DNA of 64,000 nucleotides, taken from the sequence record PZ445489.1; one strand, given 5' to 3'. The first letter of the stretch is position 1. Each line of letters begins with the position of its first letter. The DNA comes from a phage. The notes beneath the pieces are model-generated. The model did not search any database. It saw nothing but the letters and a program-made list of their open reading frames with translations, and was not told the origin of the DNA. The position numbers and the translations under genes are program-made. Below, in pieces: positions 36,060 through 47,037 of the stretch.

Positions 36060-36137
36060 GGTTCTCAAGCTCATATGGTATGAGCACCCGGCTCATAACC
36101 GGAAGGTACGTAGGTTCGAATCCTCGGGGAGCCACCA
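36060..36137 (+). tRNA. tRNA-like, anticodon CAU (Met/Ile2), imperfect T stem
   Basis: Acceptor GGTTCTC/GGGAGCC (2 GU), D stem GCTC/GAGC, anticodon loop CTCATAA, T loop TTCGAAT with 2 mismatches in stem. Confidence 0.45.
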
Positions 36138-36156
36138 AATTAAATAGAGGTCACAA

Positions 36157-36345: not shown

Positions 36346-36354
36346 GGAGACTAT

Positions 36355-36540
36355 ATGTCTAAGTTTCAAGAACTCAAGCAAGAGCTAGAAGAATGTGCCT
36401 GCCCTGAGTGTAGAGGAATTGGTGAAAGTTCTGATGCAGAAGCAGGAGATACTTTTTGCAATATCTGGGTTTGCCCAAATTGCAATGGTACAGGTATTAA
36501 TCCTAACTGTGGTATTTCCCTAGATATTGAACGAGGATAA
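36355..36540 (+). CDS. small zinc-ribbon protein (61 aa)
   Basis: CACPEC...CPNCNG. Confidence 0.45.
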   Translation: MSKFQELKQELEECACPECRGIGESSDAEAGDTFCNIWVCPNCNGTGINPNCGISLDIERG

Positions 36541-36641
36541 TACCTGTAAAACTAAAAGATTATTATATTGGTTGGTTTGTGGGACTAGTAGTAGGATTTT
36601 CACTAGGCTATAATATGTATCAACTAATAAACTGATTACAC

Positions 36642-36718
36642 GGGGGTGTAATCGAATTGGCATAGGTACTGGACTTAAAATTCAGGTTTTGTGGGTTCGA
36701 ATCCCACCACCCCTACCA
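36642..36718 (+). tRNA. tRNA-like, anticodon UAA (Leu-type anticodon on short-variable-arm scaffold), atypical D arm
   Basis: Acceptor GGGGGTG/CACCCCT, anticodon stem CTGGA/TTCAG loop CTTAAAA, T-arm GTGGG-TTCGAAT-CCCAC, disc A, CCA. Confidence 0.5.
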
Positions 36719-36893
36719 AACTAAGGAAATAAGATGTATAGACATCCACCTCCGCCAACACGTCGTTCTAGAGAAGTTATCCTCATGGAATTGACTAAAA
36801 ACTTCAAGGCAACTCTTGAAGATAGAGATCTAGGTACAGATGAAGACGTTGATTTCATTTGTAAACTATTAAAAATGAAGCTGGAGAAACATC

Positions 36894-37100
36894 ATGGCTA
36901 ACCGTGAAATTACTATGCAACGAATCATGACTAAAGGCATGATAGCCGAGGCAGGTATTGAACAAGAAGTAAAAGGCTATTACGAACAGATTAAGACTAT
37001 TATAGACTCTGCTAAAAACACCGGAGAAAAAGAACACGGTGCAGCAATTATGGCTATAACTCTTATTAGCCTAGACTTAGCTGAAGAATCTGGAGTTTAG
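36894..37100 (+). CDS. hypothetical protein (68 aa)
   Basis: ORF. Confidence 0.4.
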   Translation: MANREITMQRIMTKGMIAEAGIEQEVKGYYEQIKTIIDSAKNTGEKEHGAAIMAITLISLDLAEESGV

Positions 37101-37130
37101 CTCCTCCAAACAGAATTTTTAAAAATGTAC

Positions 37131-37160
37131 TTGCCTTTTGCTTTAAATTTCTGATATAAT
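37131..37160 (+). promoter_or_regulatory. early-type promoter
   Basis: TTGCCT-18-TATAAT. Confidence 0.5.
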
Positions 37161-37190
37161 AGTTGTATAAATTGATGAAGGAGTTAACGA

Positions 37191-37466
37191 ATGCAAAATC
37201 GTGTTGTAGCAACTGGTATTGAAAGTGCAATCTGCAAATCCTGGGAAGACTGGGAAGGTGAGATTGAGTGGCTCTATCTCTATAACGTAGATCTTCTACC
37301 GGAGGTTAAAGCTAAATGTATTGAAGCTGGCATGGCTCCAGATGCAAAAGCTGATATTGATATTTCAATGTCTGAACTTAAAGGTCGTGTAATTACTGTT
37401 AGTGATGAGGGCGAAGAAGTTTTCGAACTTCCGTTCTCCTTAACTGTCACTCCTAAGTTCGACTAA
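37191..37466 (+). CDS. hypothetical protein (91 aa)
   Basis: ORF with promoter and GAAGGAG RBS. Confidence 0.45.
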   Translation: MQNRVVATGIESAICKSWEDWEGEIEWLYLYNVDLLPEVKAKCIEAGMAPDAKADIDISMSELKGRVITVSDEGEEVFELPFSLTVTPKFD

Positions 37467-37503
37467 CTAATACAGCACTGAGCAAGTTCTTTAAAATTTG
37501 ACT

Positions 37504-37531
37504 TGCTCAGTGCCTTAAAACTTGGTATAAT
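37504..37531 (+). promoter_or_regulatory. early-type promoter driving tRNA sub-cluster
   Basis: TTGCTC-16-TATAAT. Confidence 0.5.
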
Positions 37532-37596
37532 ATTTACCTAATTTGGAAACATATTTAAAAGTGTTTAAATGAGAATTTTTGAATACTTCTAAATAT

Positions 37597-37687
37597 GTTG
37601 GATTAGTATCGTAGAGGTAGCGAAGCAGACTGTAAATCTGCCGACTCGGAAGGGTCTCGGGTGGTTCGACTCCATCATCCAACACCA
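37597..37687 (+). tRNA. tRNA-Tyr (GUA), type II
   Basis: Acceptor GTTGGAT/ATCCAAC, anticodon stem GCAGA/TCTGC loop CTGTAAA, long variable arm, T-arm GGTGG-TTCGACT-CCATC, CCA. Confidence 0.75.
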
Positions 37688-37694
37688 AATTTAA

Positions 37695-37771
37695 GTCCTG
37701 TTAGACAAACTGGTAAAGTCACTACCCTTTCAAGGTAGGATTTGCGGGTTCGATCCCCGCACAGGACGCCA
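37695..37771 (+). tRNA. tRNA-Glu (UUC)
   Basis: Acceptor GTCCTGT/ACAGGAC, anticodon stem CTACC/GGTAG loop CTTTCAA, T-arm GCGGG-TTCGATC-CCCGC, CCA. Confidence 0.75.
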
Positions 37772-37779
37772 ATTTCTGC

Positions 37780-37856
37780 ATTCCTAGAGTGTTACTGGAC
37801 AGCATGTCGGTCTCCAAAACCGTACGGTCTAGGTTCGAGTCCTAGTAGGTTTGCCA
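37780..37856 (+). tRNA. tRNA-like, anticodon CCA (Trp), acceptor stem with mismatches
   Basis: Anticodon loop CTCCAAA, T-arm CTAGG-TTCGAGT-CCTAG, 3' GCCA; acceptor pairing imperfect. Confidence 0.5.
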
Positions 37857-37862
37857 AAATTT

Positions 37863-37937
37863 GCACCTTTAGCTGAGATGGATTAGCGCTTGCCTGAAGA
37901 GCTTGAGAGGTTCGTTCGATACGAACAGGGTGCACCA
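37863..37937 (+). tRNA. tRNA-like, anticodon uncertain (possibly GAA, Phe)
   Basis: Acceptor GCACCTT/AGGGTGC, T-arm GTTCG-TTCGATA-CGAAC, CCA; anticodon stem poorly paired. Confidence 0.45.
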
Positions 37938-37954
37938 AATTGAAGGAGCTGCTG

Positions 37955-38227
37955 ATGCATCCTGAAAACTTCTTTATTTACTGCGCTGATAAGTCGCTAA
38001 AACGTAGAATTAACAAAGTCTACCATTATCGTGCTAGTCAACAGCCTTATGTATATGCTTTTGACGGTGATCACATTCCATTAGAACAATTATCTTGTGA
38101 TTACATGATATTAAAGAACTTTGACGAGACGAAGATCTCAAGCGTTCACAATCGGCAGAATCCATTAACGTGGAAATATAAGAAGAAAAAGAAAGGCATC
38201 AAATTCTTAAAAAATATAGTTGCTTAG
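37955..38227 (+). CDS. hypothetical protein (90 aa)
   Basis: ATG 37955 after AAGGAG. Confidence 0.45.
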   Translation: MHPENFFIYCADKSLKRRINKVYHYRASQQPYVYAFDGDHIPLEQLSCDYMILKNFDETKISSVHNRQNPLTWKYKKKKKGIKFLKNIVA

Positions 38228-38248
38228 TTTCCAAAAGTTCTGTATAAT
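38220..38248 (+). promoter_or_regulatory. early-type promoter
   Basis: TTGCTT-17-TATAAT. Confidence 0.55.
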
Positions 38249-38296
38249 AATTACATAAATTGAACTGGAGAAGCAACATGACAGAACAAGATAAAC

Positions 38297-38372
38297 CGAC
38301 CGTTGGCTGAATGGCTTAGGCGAAGGATTGCAAATCCTTTTTATGTGAGTTCAAATCTCATGCGGTCGTCCA
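38297..38372 (+). tRNA. tRNA-Cys (GCA)
   Basis: Acceptor CGACCGT/GCGGTCG, anticodon stem AAGGA/TCCTT loop TTGCAAA, T-arm GTGAG-TTCAAAT-CTCAT, CCA. Confidence 0.7.
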
Positions 38373-38379
38373 AATTTTA

Positions 38380-38462
38380 GGGTCGTTAGCCAAGCGGTTT
38401 GGCGGTGGACTGTTAATCCATGTCGAAAGACAACGTAGGTTCGAATCCTACACGGCCCGCCA
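38380..38462 (+). tRNA. tRNA-Asn (GUU) with extended variable region
   Basis: Acceptor GGGTCGT/ACGGCCC, anticodon loop CTGTTAA, T-arm GTAGG-TTCGAAT-CCTAC, CCA. Confidence 0.6.
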
Positions 38463-38564
38463 AATTCTGTGTAGAGTTAAGTAAACCGGTAGCCAACCAG
38501 CTATCATTGCTGACATCGAATTCAGCCACAGATACCATTTTCATTAATAACTGAGGAAACAAGC

Positions 38565-38750
38565 ATGTCCAAGAATGTAATTGCGCAGCTAGAAGTTCAT
38601 CGTGATAGCACTATCAACAATATTGAAGTTGAAAAGAAATACATCGAAGAACTTAAACATGATATACTAGTGAGTCTCAACCGTCTTAATGTACGAAAAG
38701 AGTTTCTTAAAGAACTTAATGCAGCTATTGAAAAACTCAAAGCTGAGTAA
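38565..38750 (+). CDS. hypothetical protein (61 aa)
   Basis: ORF with GAGGAAACAAGC RBS. Confidence 0.4.
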   Translation: MSKNVIAQLEVHRDSTINNIEVEKKYIEELKHDILVSLNRLNVRKEFLKELNAAIEKLKAE

Positions 38751-38759
38751 ATGAATTAT

Positions 38760-38836
38760 GCGACCGGGGCTGGCTTGGTAATGGTACTCCCCTGTCACGG
38801 GAGAGAATGTGGGTTCAAATCCCATCGGTCGCGCCA
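38760..38836 (+). tRNA. tRNA-Asp (GUC)
   Basis: Acceptor GCGACCG/CGGTCGC, anticodon stem CTCCC/GGGAG loop CTGTCAC, T-arm GTGGG-TTCAAAT-CCCAT, CCA. Confidence 0.8.
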
Positions 38837-38862
38837 AATTAATTTAGTATGAGAAATATGCT

Positions 38863-39210
38863 ATGATTAATGCTAAAGAAGAATTGTTACTTGCCCTAAA
38901 GAATACTAATTCTGAAGTTAAGTGTATTAAGATAGAATTCGGTTATTATGGAGACAAAGAAGTTTGGGTATTACCCGTAGGTTATACAGAAAAAGATATT
39001 GAAGATTTTCTAAATAATCTAGACTTTAAATATGATTCTGGTTTCGGTGGACAATTGCTTTATGGTAACGTATGGTTTACTGATGGAACTTGGTTAGAAC
39101 GTGGTGAATATGATGGTTCTGAATGGTGGGAATATAAGACTACACCAGCAATTCCAGAGGAATGCCGAACAATTAATGGTGAAGTAGATCGTACTTTACT
39201 ATTAAATTAA
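38863..39210 (+). CDS. hypothetical protein (115 aa)
   Basis: ORF. Confidence 0.5.
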   Translation: MINAKEELLLALKNTNSEVKCIKIEFGYYGDKEVWVLPVGYTEKDIEDFLNNLDFKYDSGFGGQLLYGNVWFTDGTWLERGEYDGSEWWEYKTTPAIPEECRTINGEVDRTLLLN

Positions 39211-39450
39211 CAAAATCTCAGTGCAGAACACGGAGCTAGCAATTCGGAAGTGCTGACTCATGATAAGCTGCCTATGTACTTGCGAAGCGGTCGTGTCCAA
39301 GACTCGGACTCTTGCACTGAAAACAATCAAACATTCTAGCGTGGTTGATGGGGAAACCAGCTTGGCTAGGGCAGAAGCTCGTTCGATTCGAGTGAAAGAA
39401 TGGTTCTCGTAAGTCCGCACAAGTGATAGCAGGTTCGAGTCCTGTCTAGA

Positions 39451-39642
39451 ATGACATATTCTGGAGGTTTTGTGAATTACAAAGAATTAGATCTTTTAGC
39501 AAATAAATTCACAGAGCTATCTGATAACGTTGTATCAAAGGACTCCAACATAGATAATTTTATTACTGAATATCGTGATGGTATAATCTCTAAACAAGAG
39601 TTGTTAGATAAAACGTATAAATATTTAAAGGGGTTCAGCTAA
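39451..39642 (+). CDS. hypothetical protein (63 aa)
   Basis: ORF. Confidence 0.4.
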   Translation: MTYSGGFVNYKELDLLANKFTELSDNVVSKDSNIDNFITEYRDGIISKQELLDKTYKYLKGFS

Positions 39643-39953
39643 ACGGTTAAGCACTGTCCTACTTCGGACAGAGGGAGTAACACGTAGTCTCCCAAACTCC
39701 CCCAAATTTAGATTTCTGCTTCCTAGAGAACGGACTTCTGAATAAACAAGGCGATGAAGTTTCCGGCCGGTTCTAGTCGCTAAAGTCCCTCTAACGGGGC
39801 GTAAGTAAATGAAAGTTTACTTATTATGTAGGTTCCGATAGATCGGCGGGTCTATTCTGGCATTTAAGAGAGGTCTCGCAAACTTCTTTGTCAGCCGTGG
39901 GGTTGGTAGCCTCCAGGTGGCCTACACAATAAGTAAATTTATTAAAAATTCAT

Positions 39954-39982
39954 TTGCTATTCTGCTATATTATCTGTATAAT
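39954..39982 (+). promoter_or_regulatory. early-type promoter
   Basis: TTGCTA-17-TATAAT. Confidence 0.55.
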
Positions 39983-40014
39983 ATATTTTATAAAGTGAAG
40001 AGAAGGAAAGCAAA

Positions 40015-40173
40015 ATGAAACACAAGATAGCTCAAGTTTTTATGACATTATGGTGTATGCCAATAGCTATAACAGCATTTAATCTAGATACTTTTACTAT
40101 AGAAGAAAAATGTATCGGATTAGTTAGCGGCTTTAGTATGCTGGGCTTATCTTTGTTGTGGTTGAAGAAATAA
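40015..40173 (+). CDS. small hydrophobic protein (52 aa, not in ORF track)
   Basis: ATG after GAGAAGGAAAG RBS and promoter; two hydrophobic segments. Confidence 0.35.
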   Translation: MKHKIAQVFMTLWCMPIAITAFNLDTFTIEEKCIGLVSGFSMLGLSLLWLKK

Positions 40174-40177
40174 TATT

Positions 40178-40255
40178 CTCCGTGTAGCTCAGTTTGGCCA
40201 GAGCGTTTCGTTTGGGGCGATAGGGTCGGGGGTTCAAATCCTCCCACGGAGACCA
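40178..40255 (+). tRNA. tRNA-Pro (UGG)
   Basis: Acceptor CTCCGTG/CACGGAG, D stem GCTC/GAGC, anticodon loop TTTGGGG, T-arm GGGGG-TTCAAAT-CCTCC, CCA. Confidence 0.7.
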
Positions 40256-40261
40256 AACAAT

Positions 40262-40339
40262 TGCGGGTTAGATCTCTGGTAGAGATCGCTAGTCTCATAA
40301 GCTAGAAAGAGGTAGGTTCGATTCCTGCACCCGCTTCCA
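40262..40339 (+). tRNA. tRNA with anticodon CAU (Met/fMet/Ile2)
   Basis: Anticodon stem CTAGT/GCTAG loop CTCATAA, T-arm GTAGG-TTCGATT-CCTGC, CCA. Confidence 0.6.
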
Positions 40340-40359
40340 CTTTAATAGAGGATTTCGAA

Positions 40360-40527
40360 ATGAAAGTATTTCGATTAGTAGTAAGTGACAAACGTTTAGG
40401 TAATAATACCTCAAGATCCTTACTTGCACATTATGGTAAAAATTGGGATGAAGTAATGGCAGAGTTTAATACTAATCACCCTTACTTGAAAGTTCACTCT
40501 ATTAAAGAGGTATATAATGGTTACTAA
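40360..40527 (+). CDS. small hypothetical protein (55 aa, not in ORF track)
   Basis: ATG 40360 between tRNAs. Confidence 0.3.
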   Translation: MKVFRLVVSDKRLGNNTSRSLLAHYGKNWDEVMAEFNTNHPYLKVHSIKEVYNGY

Positions 40528-40528
40528 T

Positions 40529-40606
40529 AGATCGCTAGCTCAACTGGATAAGAGTAGCGGACCTTTAATCCGTCAGTTCTGGGTTCGAATCCCAGGCGAT
40601 CTACCA
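40529..40606 (+). tRNA. tRNA-Lys (UUU), C at position 33
   Basis: Acceptor AGATCGC/GCGATCT, anticodon stem GCGGA/TCCGT loop CCTTTAA, T-arm CTGGG-TTCGAAT-CCCAG, CCA. Confidence 0.6.
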
Positions 40607-40610
40607 AATT

Positions 40611-40684
40611 GCTCGGTTAGTTTAATGGGAGAACCCCGTCTTTACACGGCGGTTGTGATAGTTCGATTCTATCACCGAGTACCA
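40611..40684 (+). tRNA. tRNA-like with non-canonical anticodon loop (identity unclear)
   Basis: Acceptor GCTCGGT/ACCGAGT, T-arm GATAG-TTCGATT-CTATC, CCA; anticodon region CCGT-CTTTAC-ACGG (6-nt loop). Confidence 0.45.
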
Positions 40685-40703
40685 ATTAACTCAAAATAAG
40701 GAA

Positions 40704-41072
40704 TTGCAAATGCAATTATCAAACAAGATTCAAGGTTATTTCGGTCATGTGACAATGGAGTTCGCATTGCAGCATGGCTGGGATATGGAAAAAGATCTAT
40801 CGGAATTTTATGAGTCTCATAAAGAGATTGATCTTAGTTCTGTCTATTTGGGATTATCTACTGGTCAAGAACTTACAGAATATGATGTATTCAAGGCAAG
40901 TCAAGGTGAGATAACACCTAGTTTTGCCGAGTTCTGGCTAGGAATTACCTTGAAGGATAATGCACCAGATGAAGGTGTGGTTATGCAAAGTATGCACTCT
41001 GGAAGCTCTGATTACCTTTACGTTCGTGATGTAAAGGAACTACAGGAAATCGCTAAAAATGTACTTGCTTAA
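40704..41072 (+). CDS. hypothetical protein (122 aa)
   Basis: ORF with RBS AAGGAATTG. Confidence 0.5.
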   Translation: MQMQLSNKIQGYFGHVTMEFALQHGWDMEKDLSEFYESHKEIDLSSVYLGLSTGQELTEYDVFKASQGEITPSFAEFWLGITLKDNAPDEGVVMQSMHSGSSDYLYVRDVKELQEIAKNVLA

Positions 41073-41093
41073 TGCTTAATTTCTTGTTATAAT
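41065..41093 (+). promoter_or_regulatory. early-type promoter
   Basis: TTGCTT-17-TATAAT. Confidence 0.55.
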
Positions 41094-41432
41094 ATTTATA
41101 TAAATTGATGCGAAAATAGCTGCCTAGATACCAGGTGTATGACGTCTACACTAGCAGAGCTACCGAAAAAGAGATCCTCAGGATAAACGTCGTAGCAAAA
41201 TTAGTCTGGTATCCATCAATTTAGTTCACTAAGGTATTAGCTCGACCTAGGACTGGCTGCCAAAAAGCACGATCCCTACAATTCGGGAGAAGTTCTAGAT
41301 TAGTCCACTAGATTCAGCGGCAACTGAATAGTGTATCGGGTTTGCGAGATGACGCAGTTCCTTCCGCTCGAAGCGAAGGTGCTGTAGTTACGCCGAGCTA
41401 ATAGCCTTAGTAAACTTACAGGGGTTAACGCA

Positions 41433-41819
41433 GTGTGTACAAAAACATGTAGAGCCTGTGGGAATGAATATCCGTTAACAACCGAATATTTTTATTCGAA
41501 TGGATTTACTCCTAATGGCACAAAGAAGTGGAAGCCAACATGTAAAGCATGTGAAAAAGCTGAACGAGTAGCTGGACATGAAGAATTAATTAAAGAAGTA
41601 TTTCCTGTATTAGAATGTAGTATTTGTGGATATAATAGGTGTAAACAAGCCCTAGATTTCCACCGTACTAATCCAGAAGAAAAGGAATACTCCATTGCAA
41701 GGTTTAGAACTTCTCGTAGAAACAGAGAAGTAGTAATAGCAGAACTTAAAAAGTGCGTACTATTATGCTCTAACTGCCATAGAGAAGTACATGCTGGATT
41801 AATAAATTTGGGCGAATAG
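41433..41819 (+). CDS. HNH endonuclease
   Basis: C-terminal CVLLCSNCHREVHAG HNH motif plus CxxC pairs; GTG start per ORF track; 3' end overlaps tRNA-Ala. Confidence 0.65.
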   Translation: MCTKTCRACGNEYPLTTEYFYSNGFTPNGTKKWKPTCKACEKAERVAGHEELIKEVFPVLECSICGYNRCKQALDFHRTNPEEKEYSIARFRTSRRNREVVIAELKKCVLLCSNCHREVHAGLINLGE

Positions 41820-41884
41820 TGTCAGCGGGAGCACACCAGACTTGCAATCTGGTAGGGAGGGTTCGAGTCCCTCTTTGTCCACCA
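41810..41884 (+). tRNA. tRNA-Ala (UGC)
   Basis: Acceptor GGGCGAA/TTTGTCC (2 GU), D stem GTGT/ACAC, anticodon stem CCAGA/TCTGG loop CTTGCAA, T-arm GAGGG-TTCGAGT-CCCTC, CCA. Confidence 0.65.
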
Positions 41885-41889
41885 AATAC

Positions 41890-41966
41890 GCGTGATTGAT
41901 GGAATTGGCATACATACCGTCCTTAGAAGTCGGGTTTTGAGGGTTCGAATCCCTTGTCACGCACCA
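41890..41966 (+). tRNA. tRNA-like, anticodon UAG (Leu-type) on short-variable-arm scaffold; paralog of 36642 element
   Basis: Acceptor GCGTGAT/GTCACGC, loop CTTAGAA, T-arm GAGGG-TTCGAAT-CCCTT, CCA; shares GAATTGGCATA D-region with 36642 tRNA. Confidence 0.5.
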
Positions 41967-42078
41967 AATTTGATGGTCAGAGTAAATTAAACCTACTATC
42001 TCGGTTGAGCTGTTTTAATGGGTTCGAATCCCAGCGAGGCGTAACTGCCTGGTGTGATAGAGGCATCATCTTATTATT

Positions 42079-42169
42079 GGAAGAGCAAATCGAATTGGCG
42101 ACGAAAACCGCTTGGAAAGTGGCTGACTGGTAAAACGGCTTGAGAGTTCAAATCTCTCCTCTTCCGCCA
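42079..42169 (+). tRNA. type II tRNA, probably Ser (GGA)
   Basis: Acceptor GGAAGAG/CTCTTCC, T-arm GAGAG-TTCAAAT-CTCTC, CCA, 91 nt; anticodon loop assignment TTGGAAA tentative. Confidence 0.55.
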
Positions 42170-42175
42170 AATAAT

Positions 42176-42265
42176 AGAAGATAGGACGTAGTGGTACGTA
42201 ACTGGTCTTGAAAACCAGCCCGCTGTAGCGATACGGTGATGGTTCGACTCCATTATCTTCTGCCA
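42176..42265 (+). tRNA. tRNA-Ser (UGA), type II
   Basis: Acceptor AGAAGAT/ATCTTCT, anticodon stem CTGGT/ACCAG loop CTTGAAA, long variable arm, T-arm GATGG-TTCGACT-CCATT, CCA. Confidence 0.75.
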
Positions 42266-42285
42266 ATTAGCTATAAGGAAACCTT

Positions 42286-42459
42286 ATGAGCAAAACAGTT
42301 ACTGTAACAATGAAGGATGGCAAAAAATTTAAAGCATGTCTTCATGAAACAGATAAGGGATGGATGGCTTACTTGCCACACCTAGATTCCACCGGGTATG
42401 GAATGACCCAACGTGAAGCTATTGTTGATGCTTTAAATGAGGCTTCTGCTGGTTTATAA
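42286..42459 (+). CDS. small hypothetical protein (57 aa, not in ORF track)
   Basis: ATG after AAGGAAACC RBS. Confidence 0.35.
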   Translation: MSKTVTVTMKDGKKFKACLHETDKGWMAYLPHLDSTGYGMTQREAIVDALNEASAGL

Positions 42460-42828
42460 AAAATTCTTGAAGTATGCCGGAATCGGTAGACGGGGCTGCC
42501 TAAAAGGTTTATAGGGAACATCCACTCCCTGCAACATACCTCATAAAGCGGCTGAGATAAATGGTCTATCTCGTGAAGGTTCAAGTCCTTCTGCTTCTTG
42601 ATACATCTATGGCTCAAAGTGTAACGGTGCTATTTGATGCTCTTGGTAAGACTTCCCCGACATGCGTTCGGGAGTAAGCTGCTAAGACTAGAGTAGAAGA
42701 GTTTCTGAGAGCCGCCACAATTGAAAATTCGTACTCGTCTTGAGCTGCGTGCAATAGGAGATAACTTGATTAGTATTCTAGAACATGCTAATTGAGGAAG
42801 GTTTCGCTAACCCTGCGAGTTTTCAATT

Positions 42829-42905
42829 GTGGCTATATCATAATTGGTTAATGATCCTGATTGTGAATCAGGCCTATGTGGATTCGAATTCCACTAGCCA
42901 CCCCA
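42829..42905 (+). tRNA. tRNA-His (GUG)
   Basis: Acceptor GTGGCTA/TAGCCAC, anticodon stem CCTGA/TCAGG loop TTGTGAA, T-arm GTGGA-TTCGAAT-TCCAC, CCA. Confidence 0.75.
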
Positions 42906-42930
42906 AATTAACTTAAATAGGAAATAAAAT

Positions 42931-43137
42931 ATGGCTGATTTCTGCAAACAATGCTCCATTGATATGTGGGGCAGAGATACTGGTGATCTTTCTGGTTTGA
43001 TTACAGAAGCTGAGGTCAAAGAAGGTTATGGTGTAGTTGTGGTTTGCGAAGGGTGCGGAGTTATTCGAGTAGATCATGAAGGCAAACGTTTAGAAGATCC
43101 AAAAAGTATTAAGAAGAAGGTTAGCCAAGTCGGTTAA
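42931..43137 (+). CDS. hypothetical Cys-rich protein (68 aa); 3' end overlaps tRNA-Gln
   Basis: CKQC...CEGCG; RBS AGGAAATAAAAT. Confidence 0.4.
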   Translation: MADFCKQCSIDMWGRDTGDLSGLITEAEVKEGYGVVVVCEGCGVIRVDHEGKRLEDPKSIKKKVSQVG

Positions 43138-43190
43138 GGCTGGGGTCTCTGAAACCCCGATCAGTGGTTCGAACCCACTACCTTCTGCCA
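43115..43190 (+). tRNA. tRNA-Gln (CUG)
   Basis: Acceptor AGAAGGT/ACCTTCT, anticodon stem GGGGT/ACCCC loop CTCTGAA, T-arm AGTGG-TTCGAAC-CCACT, CCA. Confidence 0.7.
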
Positions 43191-43196
43191 AACAGT

Positions 43197-43274
43197 TGGG
43201 GATTAGCTTAGCCTGGTCTAAAGCTTCGGCCTTTGAAGTCGAGATCATTGGTTCAAATCCAATATCCCCTGCCA
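43197..43274 (+). tRNA. tRNA-Gln (UUG)
   Basis: D stem GCTT/AAGC, anticodon stem TCGGC/GTCGA loop CTTTGAA, T-arm ATTGG-TTCAAAT-CCAAT, CCA. Confidence 0.65.
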
Positions 43275-43282
43275 AACAATAA

Positions 43283-43357
43283 GCGGTTAAGCACACGGGT
43301 TGTGTCGCAGGCCTTCCAAGCCTCGCTGAGTAGGGTTCGATTCCCTCTAGCCGCTCC
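43283..43357 (+). tRNA. tRNA-Gly (UCC)
   Basis: Acceptor GCGGTTA/TAGCCGC, anticodon loop CTTCCAA, T-arm TAGGG-TTCGATT-CCCTC, CCA. Confidence 0.6.
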
Positions 43358-43374
43358 AACTTTAAGGGAACATT

Positions 43375-43596
43375 ATGCACGTTTTTGAGTTTCGTAATAA
43401 AAGTACTGATAAACGAGTTATTGTTATTGGGGAAACATACCGAGCATACGAACAAACTGACGGTTCTGTTATCCTGAATGATGAGAAAGGAGGTTTTAGC
43501 TTTTATCCCAAAGAAACTTACGAAGAATTTCGTACAAAGTTTCTTCTACCAGACTGGCTAGAAGTAGCGCAGCAACGAGAACCCGAAGATGGCTGA
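43375..43596 (+). CDS. hypothetical protein (73 aa)
   Basis: ORF. Confidence 0.45.
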   Translation: MHVFEFRNKSTDKRVIVIGETYRAYEQTDGSVILNDEKGGFSFYPKETYEEFRTKFLLPDWLEVAQQREPEDG

Positions 43597-43753
43597 CAAC
43601 CTAAAAGTCAAGATCGATAAACAAAAGAAACGTGTAGAAGTAGAGATTGGTGAAGAACGTGTAGCCTTCACCTTTGAATTTCTACAACAAATGGCAATGA
43701 CAGTTATGACTGATAAGTCTCCTGTTATTGAAAAAGAAATCCCGTTGAAATAA
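43589..43753 (+). CDS. small hypothetical protein (54 aa, not in ORF track)
   Basis: ATG overlapping upstream stop. Confidence 0.3.
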   Translation: MADNLKVKIDKQKKRVEVEIGEERVAFTFEFLQQMAMTVMTDKSPVIEKEIPLK

Positions 43754-43763
43754 CGGGATCATC

Positions 43764-43838
43764 GCTCCTAAAGCATTGCTGGCGATGCAGTTGCCTTGTA
43801 AGCATCTGAACCGGGTTCGATTCCTGGTGGGAGCACCA
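43764..43838 (+). tRNA. tRNA-Thr (UGU)
   Basis: Acceptor GCTCCTA/TGGGAGC, D stem GCAT/ATGC, anticodon loop CTTGTAA, T-arm CCGGG-TTCGATT-CCTGG, CCA. Confidence 0.65.
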
Positions 43839-43863
43839 AATTTAAAAATTCATTTGCCTTCTC

Positions 43864-43892
43864 TCTTATTTCTTGTTATAATATCTATATAA
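43864..43892 (+). promoter_or_regulatory. early-type promoter
   Basis: TTGCCT-17-TATAAT. Confidence 0.55.
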
Positions 43893-43912
43893 ATTAATGA
43901 GAGGGAAACCAA

Positions 43913-44203
43913 ATGAAACGTTATCTTTCTGTAGTATTCCAAACTGGTGGTCAAAGATATACCTATGAATTTCCATCTTCTTGGAAAATCAAAGAAGGTG
44001 ATCAAGTAGTAGTGTTAACACCGCGTGAAGGATATAAAGTAGTAACGGTTAAACAAGTATTCCCAAAAGATCATGAACCAGCTAAAGGCATTCGCTATAA
44101 GATGATTCATGGTGTGGTTCGTCAAGTACCACGAACTGAGGTAGAAGTAGATAAGACTGGAGAAGCTAAATTCCATTATACTTCTTACTTAGACAGTGTA
44201 TGA
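43913..44203 (+). CDS. hypothetical protein (96 aa)
   Basis: ORF with GAGAGGGAAACC RBS. Confidence 0.5.
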   Translation: MKRYLSVVFQTGGQRYTYEFPSSWKIKEGDQVVVLTPREGYKVVTVKQVFPKDHEPAKGIRYKMIHGVVRQVPRTEVEVDKTGEAKFHYTSYLDSV

Positions 44204-44218
44204 TGTAAATATTCTAAT

Positions 44219-44295
44219 ACTTCGGTAGCTTAGCGATCTAAAGCACTCGGCTGATAACCGAGAGATCGGGGGTTTAAATCCCTCCCGGAGTACCA
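44219..44295 (+). tRNA. tRNA-Ile (GAU) with variant T loop TTTAAAT
   Basis: Acceptor ACTTCGG/CCGGAGT, anticodon stem CTCGG/CCGAG loop CTGATAA, T-arm GGGGG-TTTAAAT-CCCTC, CCA. Confidence 0.65.
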
Positions 44296-44391
44296 AATCT
44301 AGGAATTAAGACTATGCGTCCAGGAAAGTTTAAAAAAGCTAATTGGTCTAAAGAGTATAAAGAATACTTACTTAGTCTAGTAAAACATAAC

Positions 44392-44467
44392 AGTTAGTTG
44401 GCAGAGTGGTTATGCACCTCCTTCATACGGAGCGACTACAGTGGTTCAAATCCACTACTAACTACCA
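44392..44467 (+). tRNA. tRNA with anticodon CAU (Met/fMet/Ile2), third CAU species
   Basis: Acceptor AGTTAGT/ACTAACT, anticodon loop TTCATAC, T-arm AGTGG-TTCAAAT-CCACT, CCA. Confidence 0.65.
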
Positions 44468-44504
44468 TTAAAAGAGCTAGAGATAGCTAAATATAGGAGC
44501 AATT

Positions 44505-44699
44505 ATGTTAACAGTTAAAATAATGTCCACTGATGGTGGTGAGCAGATTCATGTTGGTAAAAGCGTAGGGTTTAATCCCAGAAATAAAAGCATAGCTATT
44601 TCTGGAATAGATCAAGCAATCTTCTTAAAAGAAGATGAAGTAGCATACGTTATGAACCAAACTGGTAAGACAGTTTCTGTATATCGTGGTAAACTATAG
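44505..44699 (+). CDS. hypothetical protein (64 aa)
   Basis: ORF with RBS AGGAG. Confidence 0.4.
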   Translation: MLTVKIMSTDGGEQIHVGKSVGFNPRNKSIAISGIDQAIFLKEDEVAYVMNQTGKTVSVYRGKL

Positions 44700-44741
44700 A
44701 CAATAAAGAGCTGAGCCAAATTCTAACATCAGGGAGATCTA

Positions 44742-45110
44742 ATGAAAGCATATCAAAATCTTAAGTCTGGCGTAATTAACCTTGTTCATGAAAATCAGAT
44801 TATTCAGCTATACTCCGACAATGGTGAACTTAAACAGAAAGTTCTAGTTGAAGATCTAGAAGGTATCACACCACAATTCGATCCCGAAGCCTTCCGTGAA
44901 GTTAAGGTGGAAGTCGCCCCTCAAATCGAAGGTGGTCAGCACCTAAATGTCAATGTGTTAAGCCGTGATCAGCTTTTGGATGCGCAGAAACATCCTGAAA
45001 AATATCCTCAGTTGACCATCCGTGTCTCTGGCTACGCTGTTCGATTTAATGCACTGACTCGTGAACAACAGAACGACGTTATTAGTCGTACATTTACTCA
45101 GGCGATGTAA
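44742..45110 (+). CDS. grcA: autonomous glycyl radical cofactor (GrcA/YfiD-like)
   Basis: C-terminal ...[45 protein letters not shown] matches the PFL/GrcA glycyl radical domain (RVSGY) as recalled. Confidence 0.75.
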
Positions 45111-45191
45111 TGGGGTTTGGATACGATTTCTCCCAGCTACGCAAGGTAGTCGAGCAAACTCCGTTTATCTCCCAAGTTTTAGGAGAAATGT

Positions 45192-45506
45192 GTGGATCGA
45201 GCATTAAGACGCCATCACCGGCAACGTGTGAAGAACAACCGCAAGAAGTATTGGACAGTCTTCCCACATGAAGAAAGCCCTAAGCGGTTAGGTATTATCA
45301 CTACTACTCCTTGCATCTGTTCTTGTTGGATGTGCGGGAACCCTCGCAAATATTATAAGAATAGTAAAGCAGGCATGAAAATTTCGGAGATTAGGAAAAT
45401 GGAAGCAATGATTATGGGCATCTCAAATGATGAATTTGATGGCTTTGTAGGATTCGGAGAAGGAATTAGCTCAGGCTGTTTCGAAGATGAACGCCCCGAT
45501 CTGTAA
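45192..45506 (+). CDS. hypothetical Cys-containing protein (104 aa)
   Basis: ORF. Confidence 0.4.
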   Translation: MDRALRRHHRQRVKNNRKKYWTVFPHEESPKRLGIITTTPCICSCWMCGNPRKYYKNSKAGMKISEIRKMEAMIMGISNDEFDGFVGFGEGISSGCFEDERPDL

Positions 45507-45515
45507 TTAATAACA

Positions 45516-45551
45516 AACCCCAGCTATTGAATAAGTAGTCTGGGGTTTTTC
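45516..45551 (+). terminator. rho-independent terminator
   Basis: AACCCCAG...CTGGGGTTTTT. Confidence 0.6.
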
Positions 45552-45627
45552 TGTATAAAGGTACATAATATATGTATAACAAAATTCATCCACATTAGGT
45601 TAATTTAAAAGACTTAATGGAGGTAAT

Positions 45628-45975
45628 ATGAGCCGTACTTATCGTAAACAATCTGGTGATCAGTGGTGGAAGTCTAAAGAACAATTCTCTCAAGAATATT
45701 CTTTCATCAAAGAAAATGGCTACTGGATTCGTGTTATTTATGCTAAATCCTGGGATGATGTAGAACAGGAAATGAAGGAAGCAACCATTCGTAATGAGAA
45801 AAAGGATGGTTATAACTGGAATTCTATTAGTAAGAATGTTAAGTGGCATTCTAATAAAATGGTTCGTCAAGGGAATCGTCAAGAACTCCACCGCGTGATG
45901 AAAGATCCAGAAAATTATGATTATAATCGCGATCATGACATGCGTAAGCGTGGATTATGGTGGTGCTATGACTAA
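45628..45975 (+). CDS. hypothetical protein (115 aa)
   Basis: ORF with GGAGGT RBS. Confidence 0.5.
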   Translation: MSRTYRKQSGDQWWKSKEQFSQEYSFIKENGYWIRVIYAKSWDDVEQEMKEATIRNEKKDGYNWNSISKNVKWHSNKMVRQGNRQELHRVMKDPENYDYNRDHDMRKRGLWWCYD

Positions 45976-45992
45976 ATTCTGAAATAATTCAT

Positions 45993-46021
45993 TTGCTAAA
46001 CCTCTCTTTTCTTGCTATAAT
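45993..46021 (+). promoter_or_regulatory. early-type promoter
   Basis: TTGCTA-17-TATAAT. Confidence 0.55.
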
Positions 46022-46051
46022 ATATTTATAAATTGATGAGAGAGGTTTGAA

Positions 46052-46333
46052 ATGAAAACTCGTCTAGACTGTGCTGTTCATGTTCTTGAACATGATGTTG
46101 TGGGAACCTGTATGTCTTATCACGAAGCAGGTCGTTTAATTAAAGAACGTGTGGCAGATGTGTGCGGATTGAAGATTACTGCTGAGGAAGCTGATGATCT
46201 TTTAGGTCAAGCACTAGAGAAAACCGAAATGTTTCTCTGCGATTCTTGTTCTTGGTGGTGTGAAGCTCACGAACGTTCTTTCAACGATTATGATGTATGT
46301 CGTGATTGTAGTGGGGAGGATGAAGATGAATAA
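46052..46333 (+). CDS. hypothetical Cys-rich protein (93 aa)
   Basis: CDSCSWWC...CRDCSG. Confidence 0.45.
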   Translation: MKTRLDCAVHVLEHDVVGTCMSYHEAGRLIKERVADVCGLKITAEEADDLLGQALEKTEMFLCDSCSWWCEAHERSFNDYDVCRDCSGEDEDE

Positions 46334-46625
46334 GTTTATTATTGCACTGATGATCTCCACAGTTAGTTTCGGTTCTCTGGCATCTATCAAAGTTTCTATG
46401 AAAAATGGTAATGTTAAAGTCCAACAGAACGGCATTATTACCGAGTATGGTAAAGTTCGTGATGTTAAGGAACGTAATGGTAAAGTAGAAATATATACTA
46501 ATAAAAACTTCTCTACTCCAGCCGTTACTATTAGCAAACGCGGTGAAATAACCACTCAACGTACTAATAGCTCCAGTTCTTTTACTTGTCGTTATGATTG
46601 CGACTTTGAAGGTGAAGATGAATAA
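46324..46625 (+). CDS. hypothetical secreted protein (signal peptide)
   Basis: ATG 46324 MNKFIIALMISTVSFGSLAS; track ORF 46260 overlaps upstream gene. Confidence 0.45.
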
Positions 46626-47037
46626 TTTAGACCCTAGAATTAAATTTGCAATTACAGAAATCCAAGATCAAATTGATGAGGATTTCACTGTTTGGTCAAG
46701 ATCTGGTAATGGAGAATATTGCCAGCTTTATAGCATGAAAATGGGTATCTCAATTGATCTTAATATCAACTCTGAAGGTAGAGTGGAAGCCCAACCCATG
46801 TTCAGTGTTCCAGGCTTCTCTGGATTTGTTGCAGGTATAAAATTGTGTCTACCAAATAACCATCTTCATCGAGTTATTTGTCAGCTAGAGACTATTAAGC
46901 ATTTCTTGCCAGAAGGTAACATTAATGACTACTACCATGAAGTTGTAGCAGCTCATATGATGAAAGAATGCAAACGTAGGAGAGAAGAACGTGAAAAAGC
47001 TAAACATCAACAGCACGGTGCAGATTCCAGCAACTAA
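46618..47037 (+). CDS. hypothetical protein
   Basis: ATG 46618 (track ORF 46594..47037). Confidence 0.45.
   Translation: MNNLDPRIKFAITEIQDQIDEDFTVWSRSGNGEYCQLYSMKMGISIDLNINSEGRVEAQPMFSVPGFSGFVAGIKLCLPNNHLHRVICQLETIKHFLPEGNINDYYHEVVAAHMMKECKRRREEREKAKHQQHGADSSN

What the first reader, a model, noticed from the sequence alone, without database searches (positions are those of the whole stretch)
41100..41884. HNH endonuclease gene preceded by a 330-nt ORF-free leader and overlapping the 5' end of tRNA-Ala
A conserved promoter at 41065-41093 is followed by ~330 nt with no ORF, then a GTG-initiated HNH endonuclease whose stop codon lies inside the acceptor stem of tRNA-Ala(UGC) (starts 41810). 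The arrangement resembles a mobile intron-like or freestanding homing-endonuclease insertion next to a tRNA, and the leader could be a structured RNA.
Basis: partly seen in the sequence, partly recalled or inferred. Interest (0 to 1): 0.5.

Follow-up and report, generated by a model that had tools for sequence, protein, structure and literature searches.

The report
Homing endonuclease beside phage RNA 2H
In this T5-like phage, a small selfish HNH nuclease gene has been inserted between a known but unexplained stable RNA (T5 "RNA 2H") and tRNA-Ala, so the supposed "leader" is really an independent, conserved, pseudoknotted RNA gene; the layout is a familiar one for T5 phages.

Summary
The window is a Tequintavirus, 99.8% identical to phage Elw. 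It has a T5 P13b-type promoter (41065-41093), then ~330 nt without a credible ORF. A GTG-initiated 128-aa HNH ORF follows (41433-41819) and overlaps tRNA-Ala (41810-41884) by 10 nt. One correction: the stop is tRNA nt 8-10, just past the acceptor-stem strand.

The "leader" is not an HNH leader or an intron. Its 3' two-thirds (41235-41406) is 97% identical to the annotated T5/BF23 "RNA 2H, stable RNA with unknown functions". That RNA occurs in ~430 T5-like phages, and about 97% of them lack this HNH gene. It matches no Rfam family at E<=10. It has a strongly covarying structure including a pseudoknot: 34 of 57 pairs show compensatory changes. I found it also in Pantoea phage AAS21 and Pectobacterium phage DU_PP_V.

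The 5' third (41111-41221) is an unannotated 111-nt expansion of a 5' hairpin, present in 85 phages.

The HNH gene is a ~385-nt freestanding homing-endonuclease cassette inserted in the 9-10-nt RNA2H|tRNA-Ala spacer. It borrows its last codons and stop from the spacer and tRNA, as related HNH genes do elsewhere. This copy carries a private H78R change at the predicted catalytic histidine.

Overall this is ordinary in kind. The moderately interesting part is the orphan RNA.

The parts
41065..41093 (+). Sigma-70 early promoter, homolog of T5 P13b (-35 TTGCTT 41065-70; extended -10 TGtTATAAT 41085-93). The inferred transcription start is near 41100.
   Evidence: 41055-41110 is 94.6% identical to the annotated T5 promoter P13b. 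The same promoter precedes RNA2H in Pantoea phage AAS21. The generic scanner misses it.
41102..41222 (+). 5' hairpin domain, long variant. The closing stem AAAUUGAUG/CAUCAAUUU (41102-10 / 41214-22) encloses a 111-nt three-way module (41111-41221). In T5 the same stem base carries only a 6-nt loop.
   Evidence: Alignment of long and short forms. The module occurs in 85 phage records, once each and always at this locus, at 95-100% identity, and is unannotated everywhere. One fully coupled compensatory pair (C41131-G41209 <-> U-A), two wobble-compatible changes, no stem-breaking change, and 1-nt indels that exclude coding. MFE z = -2.3.
41223..41416 (+). RNA 2H precursor domain. A 21-bp terminal stem P1 (41223-41244 with 41394-41416) encloses a multi-hairpin, pseudoknotted core.
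   Evidence: RNAalifold. Pair counts: 99.5% of cells paired and 12 double-change pairs, rising to 34 of 57 pairs once distant homologs are added. MFE z = -4.4. Covariance model R1 scores 241 bits.
41235..41406 (+). Homolog of the mature 172-nt T5 'RNA 2H' (stable RNA of unknown function).
   Evidence: 97.1% identical over all 172 nt of T5 rna2H. Annotated as misc_RNA rna2H in T5 AY692264, BF23 AJ604530 and phage 5 AJ604531. No Rfam family at E<=10.
41250..41306 (+). Pseudoknot: GGACU (41250-54) pairs with AGUCC (41302-06), which lies in the loop of hairpin UCUAG/CUAGA (41294-98 / 41308-12). Next comes hairpin UUCAG-CGGCAA-CUGAA (41313-28).
   Evidence: The pseudoknot was not in the covariance model, yet it is 100% paired and becomes GAACC/GGUUC in AAS21 and DU_PP_V, so 2 of 5 pairs are compensatory. 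The hairpin is compensated as UCUGA/UCAGA in two Epseptimavirus genomes, where the RNAalifold alternative breaks.
41419..41804 (+). Inserted cassette of about 385 nt (RBS AGGGG 41420-24 plus the first ~123 codons of the HNH ORF). It occupies the spacer that reads (T)AAAGAATTT in empty sites.
   Evidence: Junction comparison with empty sites in T5, TrudiRoth, L016 and L031.
41433..41819 (+). HNH (His-Me finger) homing-endonuclease gene, 128 aa, GTG start. The last five codons (N L G E stop) are supplied by the pre-existing spacer and tRNA-Ala nt 1-10.
   Evidence: PHROG 2255 at 4.6e-31. Homolog alignment with CxxC...HH...CxxCH motifs. McrA HNH hit. AF2 pLDDT 87.7 and HNH-type Foldseek top hits. 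The 75%-identical homolog sits at the same site in AAS21.
41664..41666 (+). Codon 78, CGT (Arg), where every homolog has His. This is the second His of the HH doublet, the predicted general base.
   Evidence: 25 of 25 aligned homologs have His here. The near-identical phages Elw and NBSal005 encode His. The role of the catalytic His in His-Me fingers is described in PMC5714182.
41810..41884 (+). tRNA-Ala(UGC). Its nucleotides U8-A9-G10 form the HNH stop codon.
   Evidence: ARAGORN and Rfam tRNA at 54.9 bits.

Best explanation
The region is one segment of the T5-type tRNA / stable-RNA operon.

Transcription starts at a P13b-type early promoter and reads through four elements in turn. (i) A 5'-terminal hairpin domain, here in a long 111-nt variant. 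(ii) RNA 2H, a conserved, pseudoknotted stable RNA enclosed by a 21-bp stem. (iii) An HNH gene. (iv) tRNA-Ala, tRNA-Leu and further tRNAs.

The 330-nt 'leader' is therefore an independent RNA gene plus its 5' hairpin. It is not a UTR or an intron.

The HNH gene is a freestanding homing-endonuclease cassette of about 385 nt. It has landed in the 9-10-nt spacer between RNA 2H and tRNA-Ala. It brings its own RBS, and it ends by reading through the spacer into the tRNA, using the tRNA's U8-A9-G10 as its stop codon.

Inferred steps, not shown here. RNA 2H is cut out of the precursor within its terminal stem. The T5-annotated ends leave a 2-nt 3' overhang, the geometry left by RNase III. That cut would leave the HNH message with a short unstructured 5' end. 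RNase P cleavage at tRNA-Ala position 1 would remove the last three codons and the stop, keeping endonuclease expression low; this has been proposed for T4 segB and the T5 F-Tfl enzymes. In phages lacking the cassette, the enzyme would cut near the RNA2H|tRNA-Ala junction, and repair would copy the gene in.

In this particular genome the predicted general-base histidine is replaced by arginine (H78R), so the copy is probably catalytically dead or impaired.

The function of RNA 2H itself is unknown. Its invariant loops and covarying stems across two Demerecviridae subfamilies argue that it acts as a folded RNA, most plausibly by binding a protein, rather than serving only as a processing spacer.
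For: Identity of the leader. 41235-41406 is 97% identical to T5 rna2H. The order P13b -> rna2H -> tRNA-Ala -> tRNA-Leu is annotated in T5, BF23 and phage 5. 427 phage records carry it. Only about 14 records carry an HNH homolog at 60% or more protein identity.

Independence of the modules. The upstream ORF, the 5' module and the HNH gene are each present or absent independently, while the RNA2H core is constant.

Structure. 99.5% of cells are paired against 27-42% in slid controls. 12 pairs have double changes, rising to 34 of 57 with AAS21 and DU_PP_V, which 0/500 shuffles reach. The pseudoknot covaries although it was not in the model. MFE z = -4.4.

Distribution. The covariance model finds RNA2H in Pantoea phage AAS21 (93 bits) and Pectobacterium phage DU_PP_V (86 bits), each directly upstream of a tRNA or of HNH+tRNA.

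Insertion. The empty and filled junctions are clean. Two HNH alleles that share 69% identity occupy the identical site with an identical 393-nt gap. The AAS21 homolog (75% identity) is at the same site with the same UAG-in-tRNA stop.

The stop-in-tRNA design also occurs in KIL3b (Pseudomonas) and in other T5-group HNH genes such as F-TflIII/hegB.

The processing model for tRNA-overlapping homing endonucleases is described in PMC2330249.

HNH genes are the main source of mosaicism among T5-like genomes: PMC10644984.

H78R.
Against: No expression or processing data were available for this phage. The transcription start, the RNase III and RNase P steps, and the non-stop consequence are all inferred.

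The mature RNA 2H ends come from GenBank annotations whose experimental basis I could not read.

Those same ends also fit a tRNA-acceptor-like 10-bp stem with a 3' G-CC tail, so RNase P plus 3' trimming is an alternative to RNase III.

Pfam and NCBIfam do not recognise the HNH domain, and Foldseek E-values are weak (best 0.024).

Endonuclease activity, target site and homing have not been shown for this protein family.

Many of the compensatory changes come from a few whole-hairpin swaps and two distant genomes, so the number of independent events is smaller than the cell counts suggest. The alignment used was fitted to the model for the nested helices.

The H78R change could be a sequencing error.
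Confidence: 0.8

Rival explanations
1. The 330-nt stretch plus the HNH gene is a mobile group I or group II intron, or an intron remnant, with the HNH as its intron-encoded endonuclease.
For: HNH endonucleases are common intron passengers. The upstream RNA is highly structured. Profile hits of the HNH motif include group II intron maturase endonuclease domains.
Against: No Rfam intron family or any other family matches at E<=10. No host gene is interrupted, and tRNA-Ala is intact and contiguous. The structured RNA is present without the HNH in about 97% of relatives, and the HNH cassette boundary lies outside the RNA. The RNA is annotated as a discrete stable RNA.
Confidence: 0.02
2. The 330 nt is a cis-acting 5' UTR (riboswitch, thermometer or translational operator) that controls HNH expression.
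For: It lies directly upstream of the HNH RBS on the same transcript. One MFE prediction pairs module nucleotides with the RBS region.
Against: The same RNA precedes a tRNA directly in most phages. The presence of the long 5' module and of the HNH are uncorrelated: NBSal005 and SA001 have the HNH with the short hairpin, and TrudiRoth has the long module without the HNH. The RBS pairing is absent from the centroid structure, and the local fold of 41407-41460 is no better than shuffles, z = -0.4.
Confidence: 0.04
3. RNA 2H is only a processing spacer. Its terminal stem is an RNase III site that separates upstream RNA from the tRNAs, the excised piece merely persists, and it has no function of its own.
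For: The annotated ends give RNase III-like geometry within P1. The lower half of P1, outside the mature RNA, is the most sequence-conserved helix. The T5 tRNA region tolerates large deletions in the laboratory (PMC12483538).
Against: Internal loops (GGCUGCCAAAAAGCAC, CGGCAA, UAGUGUA) and a pseudoknot are conserved or covary across two subfamilies, while stems drift. A mere RNase III site would not need this.
Confidence: 0.25
4. The HNH protein is not a selfish homing enzyme. It is a domesticated phage nuclease, for example a nickase or a packaging or anti-host factor, that happens to be encoded here.
For: T5-type genomes carry site-specific nicks, and HNH nickases are known. The protein is small, with an N-terminal zinc-ribbon-like module.
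Against: It is present in only about 3% of phages that share the locus. It is inserted at one exact site with clean empty alleles. Divergent alleles occupy the same site. The window's copy carries a substitution of the near-invariant His while the phage is otherwise 99.8% identical to a relative. All of this is typical of an invading and decaying selfish gene.
Confidence: 0.08

Closest known systems
T5 / BF23 / phage 5 'RNA 2H' (gene rna2H; GenBank AY692264, AJ604530, AJ604531: 'stable RNA with unknown functions')
   Same: 97% identical over the full 172 nt. Same promoter (P13b), same downstream neighbour (tRNA-Ala, then tRNA-Leu), same strand and operon.
   Different: In the window the 5' hairpin preceding it is expanded by a 111-nt module, as in phage 5, where that module is unannotated. 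An HNH gene separates it from tRNA-Ala. The consensus structure, the pseudoknot and the homologs in AAS21 and DU_PP_V come from this analysis, not from the annotations. No function is known for any member, and there is no Rfam family.
T5-group freestanding HNH homing endonucleases in the tRNA region (F-TflI, F-TflII, F-TflIII/hegB, F-TflIV; Akulenko et al. 2004, cited in PMC2330249 and PMC10644984)
   Same: An HNH gene with its own RBS inserted between stable-RNA genes of the tRNA cluster. The 3' end of the ORF runs into the next tRNA: hegB into tRNA-Pro, T5p062 into tRNA-Ser, T5p059 into tRNA-Gln. Presence is polymorphic among relatives.
   Different: No detectable sequence similarity to T5p059 or T5p062. 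The protein is smaller (128 aa against ~190 aa), has a different N-terminal module and belongs to PHROG 2255. Its activity and target are untested. This copy has H78R.
T4 SegB (GIY-YIG homing endonuclease in the T4 tRNA cluster; PMC2330249)
   Same: A freestanding homing endonuclease inside a phage tRNA gene cluster. Maturation of the downstream tRNA cuts the message at the end of the ORF. This was proposed to limit expression, and the same idea was extended to the T5 F-Tfl enzymes.
   Different: A different nuclease superfamily (GIY-YIG, not HNH), a different phage family, and a different neighbouring tRNA.
T4 stable RNAs (species 1 and 2, rnaC/rnaD) and the large tRNA-associated phage RNAs ROOL and GOLLD (recalled from my own knowledge as a lead, not tested beyond Rfam)
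   Same: Non-coding, structured, abundant RNAs encoded next to phage tRNA genes and co-transcribed with them, with function unknown or only recently approached.
   Different: No sequence or structure match. Rfam holds ROOL and GOLLD, and nothing matched at E<=10. RNA 2H is much smaller (172-194 nt) and is restricted, as far as I could search, to Demerecviridae.

Membership tests
HNH / His-Me finger nuclease superfamily | Sequence membership in an HNH family profile | tested here: met
   PHROG 2255 'HNH endonuclease' at 4.6e-31, plus four more HNH PHROGs. A profile of homologs hits the McrA HNH motif at E=1.5e-4. Pfam-A and NCBIfam give no hit.
HNH / His-Me finger nuclease superfamily | Beta-beta-alpha-metal fold with two CxxC zinc pairs | tested here: met
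   AF2 model with pLDDT 87.7: strand 74-78, strand 108-112, helix 113-120. C62/C65 and C112/C115 are invariant. The Foldseek top hits are Hpy99I, Cap5 HNH and Gme HNH, but they are weak (E 0.02-0.8).
HNH / His-Me finger nuclease superfamily | Catalytic histidine (general base) at the end of strand beta-1 | tested here: not met
   The window encodes Arg78 (CGT 41664-66) where 25 of 25 homologs, including the 99%-identical Elw and NBSal005 alleles, have His. Assigning the second His of the doublet as the general base rests on established knowledge (colicin E9 H103, Cas9 H840) and on PMC5714182. The family is HNH, but this copy is probably inactive.
Freestanding homing endonuclease gene | Presence/absence polymorphism at one precise site between conserved flanks, with its own translation signals and no intron or intein | tested here: met
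   The empty sites in T5, TrudiRoth, L016 and L031 compare cleanly with the filled sites in the window, NBSal005 and SA001. The RBS AGGGG is 8 nt before GTG. There is no intron signature.
Freestanding homing endonuclease gene | Site-specific cleavage of the empty allele and preferential inheritance in mixed infection | not testable with these tools
   This needs enzyme assays and co-infection crosses.
T5 RNA 2H stable RNA | Sequence homology over the full annotated RNA, with conserved synteny (P13b promoter upstream, tRNA-Ala downstream) | tested here: met
   97.1% identity over 172/172 nt, and the promoter is 94.6% identical. Synteny is shown. The HNH insertion is the only interruption.
T5 RNA 2H stable RNA | Accumulates as a discrete stable RNA in infected cells | not testable with these tools
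   Only the depositors' annotation exists ('stable RNA with unknown functions'). No paper describing it is in the searchable library.
Group I / group II self-splicing intron | Match to intron covariance models, and interruption of a host gene with restorable exons | tested here: not met
   No Rfam hit at E<=10 on 41090-41440 or at E<=1 on 30000-47000. The flanking genes are intact.
Any curated RNA family (Rfam 15), including ROOL, GOLLD, 6S, Y RNA, tmRNA and RNase P | Covariance-model match | tested here: not met
   Zero matches at E<=10.
RNase III-processed precursor | Mature ends lie opposite each other in a long duplex and leave a 2-nt 3' overhang | tested here: inconclusive
   The T5-annotated ends map to U41235 and C41406 within the 21-bp P1 stem and leave a 3' CC overhang. 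The experimental basis of those ends is unknown, and the same ends also fit a 10-bp stem with a G-CC acceptor-like tail.

The most novel reading that the evidence does not exclude
RNA 2H, together with the variable helix that always abuts its terminal stem, may be a distinct functional class of phage structured RNA. It is pseudoknotted, conserved across at least two Demerecviridae subfamilies, absent from Rfam, and always embedded in tRNA operons. On this reading it acts in trans as a folded RNA, for example as a decoy or binding partner for a host tRNA-directed defence nuclease, a tRNA-processing or modification enzyme, or another RNA-binding protein. It would not be just a processing by-product. 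The near-invariant 111-nt 5' module found in 85 phages would then be an accessory domain that spreads horizontally.
Probability: 0.4. Interest if true: 0.6.

Novelty: new member of a known kind. Interest (0 to 1): 0.4.

Why it matters
For the HNH gene the result is mostly housekeeping. It adds one more tRNA-adjacent homing endonuclease to a group already known to drive mosaicism in T5-like phages. It also gives a tidy example of a cassette that carries no stop codon of its own and relies on the near-universal U8-A9-G10 of a tRNA, and of a copy that appears to be decaying (H78R).

The more useful outcome concerns the 'leader'. It ties an unannotated stretch in hundreds of T5-like genomes, several of which carry spurious CDS calls on it, to the T5 stable RNA 2H. 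It supplies a covariation-supported secondary structure with a pseudoknot, a covariance model and two distant homologs.

The functions of the T5 stable RNAs (RNA I, III, IV, 1, 2, 2H) are listed as 'unknown' in the depositors' annotations, and I found no paper on them in the searchable library. A defined structure with invariant loops makes targeted mutagenesis and partner pull-downs straightforward. This comes at a time when phage tRNA clusters are being recognised as counter-defence loci.

Tried and rejected
- Rfam, twice: E<=1 on 17 kb and E<=10 on the 351-nt stretch. Only tRNAs matched. That rejects intron, riboswitch, 6S, Y RNA, tmRNA, RNase P, ROOL and GOLLD.
- Pfam and NCBIfam on the HNH protein: no hits. 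The HNH assignment had to rest on PHROGs, homolog motifs, a PDB profile hit and the predicted fold.
- The generic promoter scan did not report the promoter. I accepted it on homology to annotated P13b and by reading the hexamers.
- The RNAalifold central helices (CUAGGACU/AGUUCUAG and CACUA/UAGUG) were rejected. They break in two genomes where the alternative hairpin UCUAG/CUAGA plus the pseudoknot stays fully paired.
- L025 from the IMG/VR core-motif scan is a chance match inside a coding region.
- About 80 of the 92 hits to the 16-nt motif were chance.
- The metagenome scan returned only close T5-type copies.
- No RNA2H lies within +/-6 kb of the upstream-ORF homolog in Vibrio phage valsw3.
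- Literature searches for RNA 2H and T5 non-coding RNAs found no paper on it. Searches failed on term length.
- The 29-aa ORF inside the 5' module was rejected as coding because of frame-breaking indels.
- No paralog of the HNH exists elsewhere in the window, and it has no similarity to T5p059 or T5p062.
- A functional link between the long 5' module and the HNH was rejected because their occurrence is uncorrelated.
Full report
**What the window is.** The region is 99.8% identical over 1,211 nt to Escherichia phage vB_EcoD-Elw, a Tequintavirus in the Demerecviridae. It lies inside the phage's large tRNA cluster. ARAGORN tRNAs, and a relaxed run adds three more.

**Checking the observation.**
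- The promoter reads -35 TTGCTT (41065-70), a 17-nt spacer, and an extended -10 TGtTATAAT (41085-93). A generic consensus scan misses it because the -35 matches only 3/6. However, 41055-41110 is 94.6% identical to the annotated T5 promoter P13b.
- Between 41095 and 41430 the only ORF of 20 aa or more is a 29-aa GTG ORF. Frame-breaking 1-nt indels in 3 of 10 relatives rule it out as coding.
- The ORF at 41433-41819 (GTG start, 128 aa, RBS AGGGG 8 nt upstream) is not recognised by Pfam or NCBIfam.
- It does match PHROG 2255 'HNH endonuclease' at 4.6e-31. It shares the CxxC...HH...CxxCH motifs of 25 aligned homologs. As a profile it hits the McrA HNH motif.
- It gives a confident AlphaFold model (pLDDT 87.7) whose best, though weak, structural matches are beta-beta-alpha-Me nucleases.
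- tRNA-Ala(UGC) is at 41810-41884. The overlap is 10 nt, and the stop TAG is tRNA nucleotides 8-10. So it lies just after the acceptor-stem strand rather than inside it.

**The 'leader' is a known stable-RNA gene plus a 5' hairpin domain.**
- A sensitive BLAST of 41094-41432 finds 427 phage records, all T5-like.
- In T5 (AY692264) and BF23 (AJ604530) the matching segment is annotated 'rna2H: RNA 2H, stable RNA with unknown functions'. It lies between promoter P13b and tRNA-Ala. The same holds in Salmonella phage 5 (AJ604531).
- T5's 172-nt rna2H maps to window 41235-41406 at 97.1% identity.
- All six T5 'stable' or 'tRNA-like' RNAs have counterparts in the window.
- I found no paper on RNA 2H in the searchable library. 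The GenBank annotations are the only prior record I could reach.

**Mosaic structure.** Mapping the window onto relatives shows three independently variable pieces around a constant RNA2H core.
- The upstream ORF at 40704-41072 (PHROG 7572).
- A 111-nt segment at 41111-41221.
- The HNH gene.

TrudiRoth has the complete 330-nt 'leader' joined directly to tRNA-Ala. T5 and BF23 have neither the 111-nt segment nor the HNH. NBSal005 and SA001 have the HNH but not the 111-nt segment. So the leader does not belong to the HNH gene.

**RNA 2H is a structured RNA.**
- The precursor domain 41223-41416 folds far better than shuffled controls (z = -4.4).
- On 27 distinct T5-group sequences, RNAalifold predicts a 21-bp terminal stem P1 and several hairpins.
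- Two of its central helices break in two Epseptimavirus genomes. There an alternative hairpin (UCUAG/CUAGA to UCUGA/UCAGA) is perfectly compensated.
- With that hairpin plus a pseudoknot between GGACU (41250-54) and AGUCC in its loop (41302-06), 99.5% of cells pair, against 27-42% in slid controls. Twelve pairs carry double changes, which 0/500 shuffles reach.
- I built a covariance model of the core and searched distant Demerecviridae loci, found through homologs of the upstream ORF.
- The model finds full-length homologs in Pantoea phage AAS21 (93 bits) and Pectobacterium phage DU_PP_V (86 bits, subfamily Mccorquodalevirinae). Each is directly upstream of a tRNA or of HNH+tRNA. There is none in the Vibrio phage locus.
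- Adding these two, 34 of 57 pairs show compensatory double changes (0/500 shuffles; 4-10 in slid controls).
- The pseudoknot was not part of the model. It becomes GAACC/GGUUC and stays 100% paired.
- Caveats: several compensations come from whole-hairpin swaps, so there are fewer independent events than cells counted. The nested helices were aligned to the model.
- The conserved single-stranded elements are GGCUGCCAAAAAGCAC, the CGGCAA loop and UAGUGUA.
- No Rfam family matches at E<=10.
- Motif scans of IMG/VR and of the metagenome collection, filtered with the model, returned only Demerecviridae.

**Processing (inference).**
- The T5-annotated ends fall opposite each other within P1 and leave a 2-nt 3' CC overhang. 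That is the geometry left by RNase III.
- The lower half of P1 lies outside the mature RNA. It is the most sequence-conserved helix (AGUUYAYUAAGG/CCUUARUAAAYU), while the upper half covaries freely. This fits a processing signal.
- The same ends also fit a 10-bp stem with a G-CC tail resembling a tRNA acceptor end. I cannot exclude RNase P plus 3' trimming.

**The 5' domain.**
- In T5 the transcript begins with a short hairpin (GAUGAGG-AGAAAU-CCUCAUC) that abuts P1.
- In the window, a 111-nt three-way module replaces the tip of that hairpin. The stem base is retained and extended to 9 bp.
- The module occurs in 85 phage records, always at this locus, at 95-100% identity. It is annotated nowhere.
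- Variation is sparse: one fully coupled C-G to U-A pair, two wobble-compatible changes, and no disruptive change in a stem.
- AAS21 has a different, ~165-nt domain closed by a stem flush against P1. DU_PP_V has a short GC hairpin there.
- So a helix of variable size stacked on P1 seems to be part of the design.
- It is unexplained why the module is so much more conserved than its flanks.

**The HNH cassette.**
- Empty sites read ...GUAAACU (U)AAAGAAUUU | GGGCGAAUAG (the tRNA).
- The window reads ...GUAAACU UA [CAGGGG ... ~385 nt ... UUAAUA] AAUUU | GGGCGAAUAG.
- The cassette thus brings an RBS and about 123 codons. The last five codons (N L G E stop) come from the resident spacer and tRNA nt 1-10.
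- A second allele, 69% identical (SA001, NR01), occupies exactly the same site with the same 393-nt spacing.
- The AAS21 gene is 75% identical. It is also between RNA2H and tRNA-Ala and ends in the tRNA's UAG.
- A 31%-identical homolog in Pseudomonas phage KIL3b ends in U8-A9-G10 of tRNA-Thr.
- Other T5-group HNH genes (T5p062, T5p059, F-TflIII/hegB, bas26_0098) also run into tRNAs.
- Only about 14 phage records carry a homolog at 60% or more identity, against 427 that carry RNA2H.
- The same spacer holds unrelated inserts in phA11, bombadil and STG2.
- This is the signature of a freestanding homing endonuclease, a class already documented for the T5 tRNA region (F-TflI-IV; PMC2330249; PMC10644984).
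- PMC2330249 also describes the idea that maturation of the overlapping tRNA cuts off the end of the message and limits expression. Here RNase P cleavage before G41810 would remove the last three codons and the stop (inference).

**A decaying copy?**
- All 25 aligned homologs have the His-His doublet, including the Elw and NBSal005 alleles, which differ from the window's protein at this residue only.
- The window has His-Arg: H78R, CGT at 41664-66.
- The histidine at the end of strand beta-1 is the general base of His-Me finger nucleases (PMC5714182).
- By analogy with colicin E9 H103 and Cas9 H840 (my own knowledge), it is the second residue of the doublet.
- The copy in this genome is therefore probably inactive. 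A sequencing error cannot be excluded.

**Verdict.**
- The finding is real, but in kind it is ordinary for T5-like phages. It is a homing-endonuclease cassette in the tRNA cluster, next to an already annotated stable RNA.
- The intron idea is rejected.
- The part with residual interest is RNA 2H itself. It is an orphan, pseudoknotted, well-conserved phage RNA without an Rfam family or a known function, and it comes with a variable 5' helix domain.
- T5's tRNA region is dispensable in the laboratory (PMC12483538). Any function is likely conditional, for instance in particular hosts or against particular defences.

Noticed in passing
window 41664-41666: Private H78R substitution (CAY to CGT) in the otherwise invariant His-His doublet of the HNH motif. 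The nearly identical phages Elw and NBSal005 encode His. This suggests an inactivated homing endonuclease or a sequencing error.
   Followed up: partly
window 36060-36137, 42079-42169, 43283-43358: Default ARAGORN missed three tRNA genes. They appear with a relaxed threshold and partly in Rfam: tRNA-Met(cat), tRNA-Ser(gga) (100% identical to BF23 tRNA-Ser2), and tRNA-Gly(tcc). The cluster therefore has at least 26 tRNAs.
   Followed up: partly
window 39332-39456, 39826-39928, 42466-42610, 42611-42717, 42722-42827: These are homologs of the other five T5 'stable' or 'tRNA-like' RNAs of unknown function (rna2, rnaIV, rna1, rnaI, rnaIII), at 85-99% identity. None matches an Rfam family above threshold. 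rna1 gives only a weak 25-bit tRNA hit.
   Followed up: no
L005 1226-1456; L007 1263-1580; L024 6517-6661: The 9-10-nt spacer between RNA2H and tRNA-Ala is an insertion hot spot. phA11 has a 238-nt insert and bombadil a 105-aa ORF. STG2 has another ORF flanked by a partial duplicate of the RNA2H 3' end.
   Followed up: no
L038 6930-7251 (Pantoea phage AAS21); also PS3-1, PMBT27, PMBT29 and vB_SenS-3: Several GenBank records annotate short 'hypothetical protein' CDSs on top of RNA2H or its 5' domain. Given the covariation-supported RNA, these calls are probably spurious.
   Followed up: partly
window 41111-41221 and 85 phage records: The 111-nt 5' module is 95-100% identical across phages whose flanking ORF and RNA2H variable hairpins are only ~75-90% identical. 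Either the sequence is under very strong constraint or the module has spread horizontally in recent times.
   Followed up: partly
window 42931-43137 and tRNA-Gln 43115-43190: A second ORF (68 aa) ends 23 nt inside a tRNA. This mirrors the T5p059/tRNA-Gln overlap in T5, although here the ORF is short and is not an HNH gene.
   Followed up: no
window, more than 10 sites (e.g. 6210-6275, 37112-37183, 43838-43901, 46008-46040): Sequences similar to the T5 P13a/P13b promoters recur many times. This is consistent with a family of near-identical early promoters, which could also serve as recombination repeats in the deletion-prone tRNA region.
   Followed up: no
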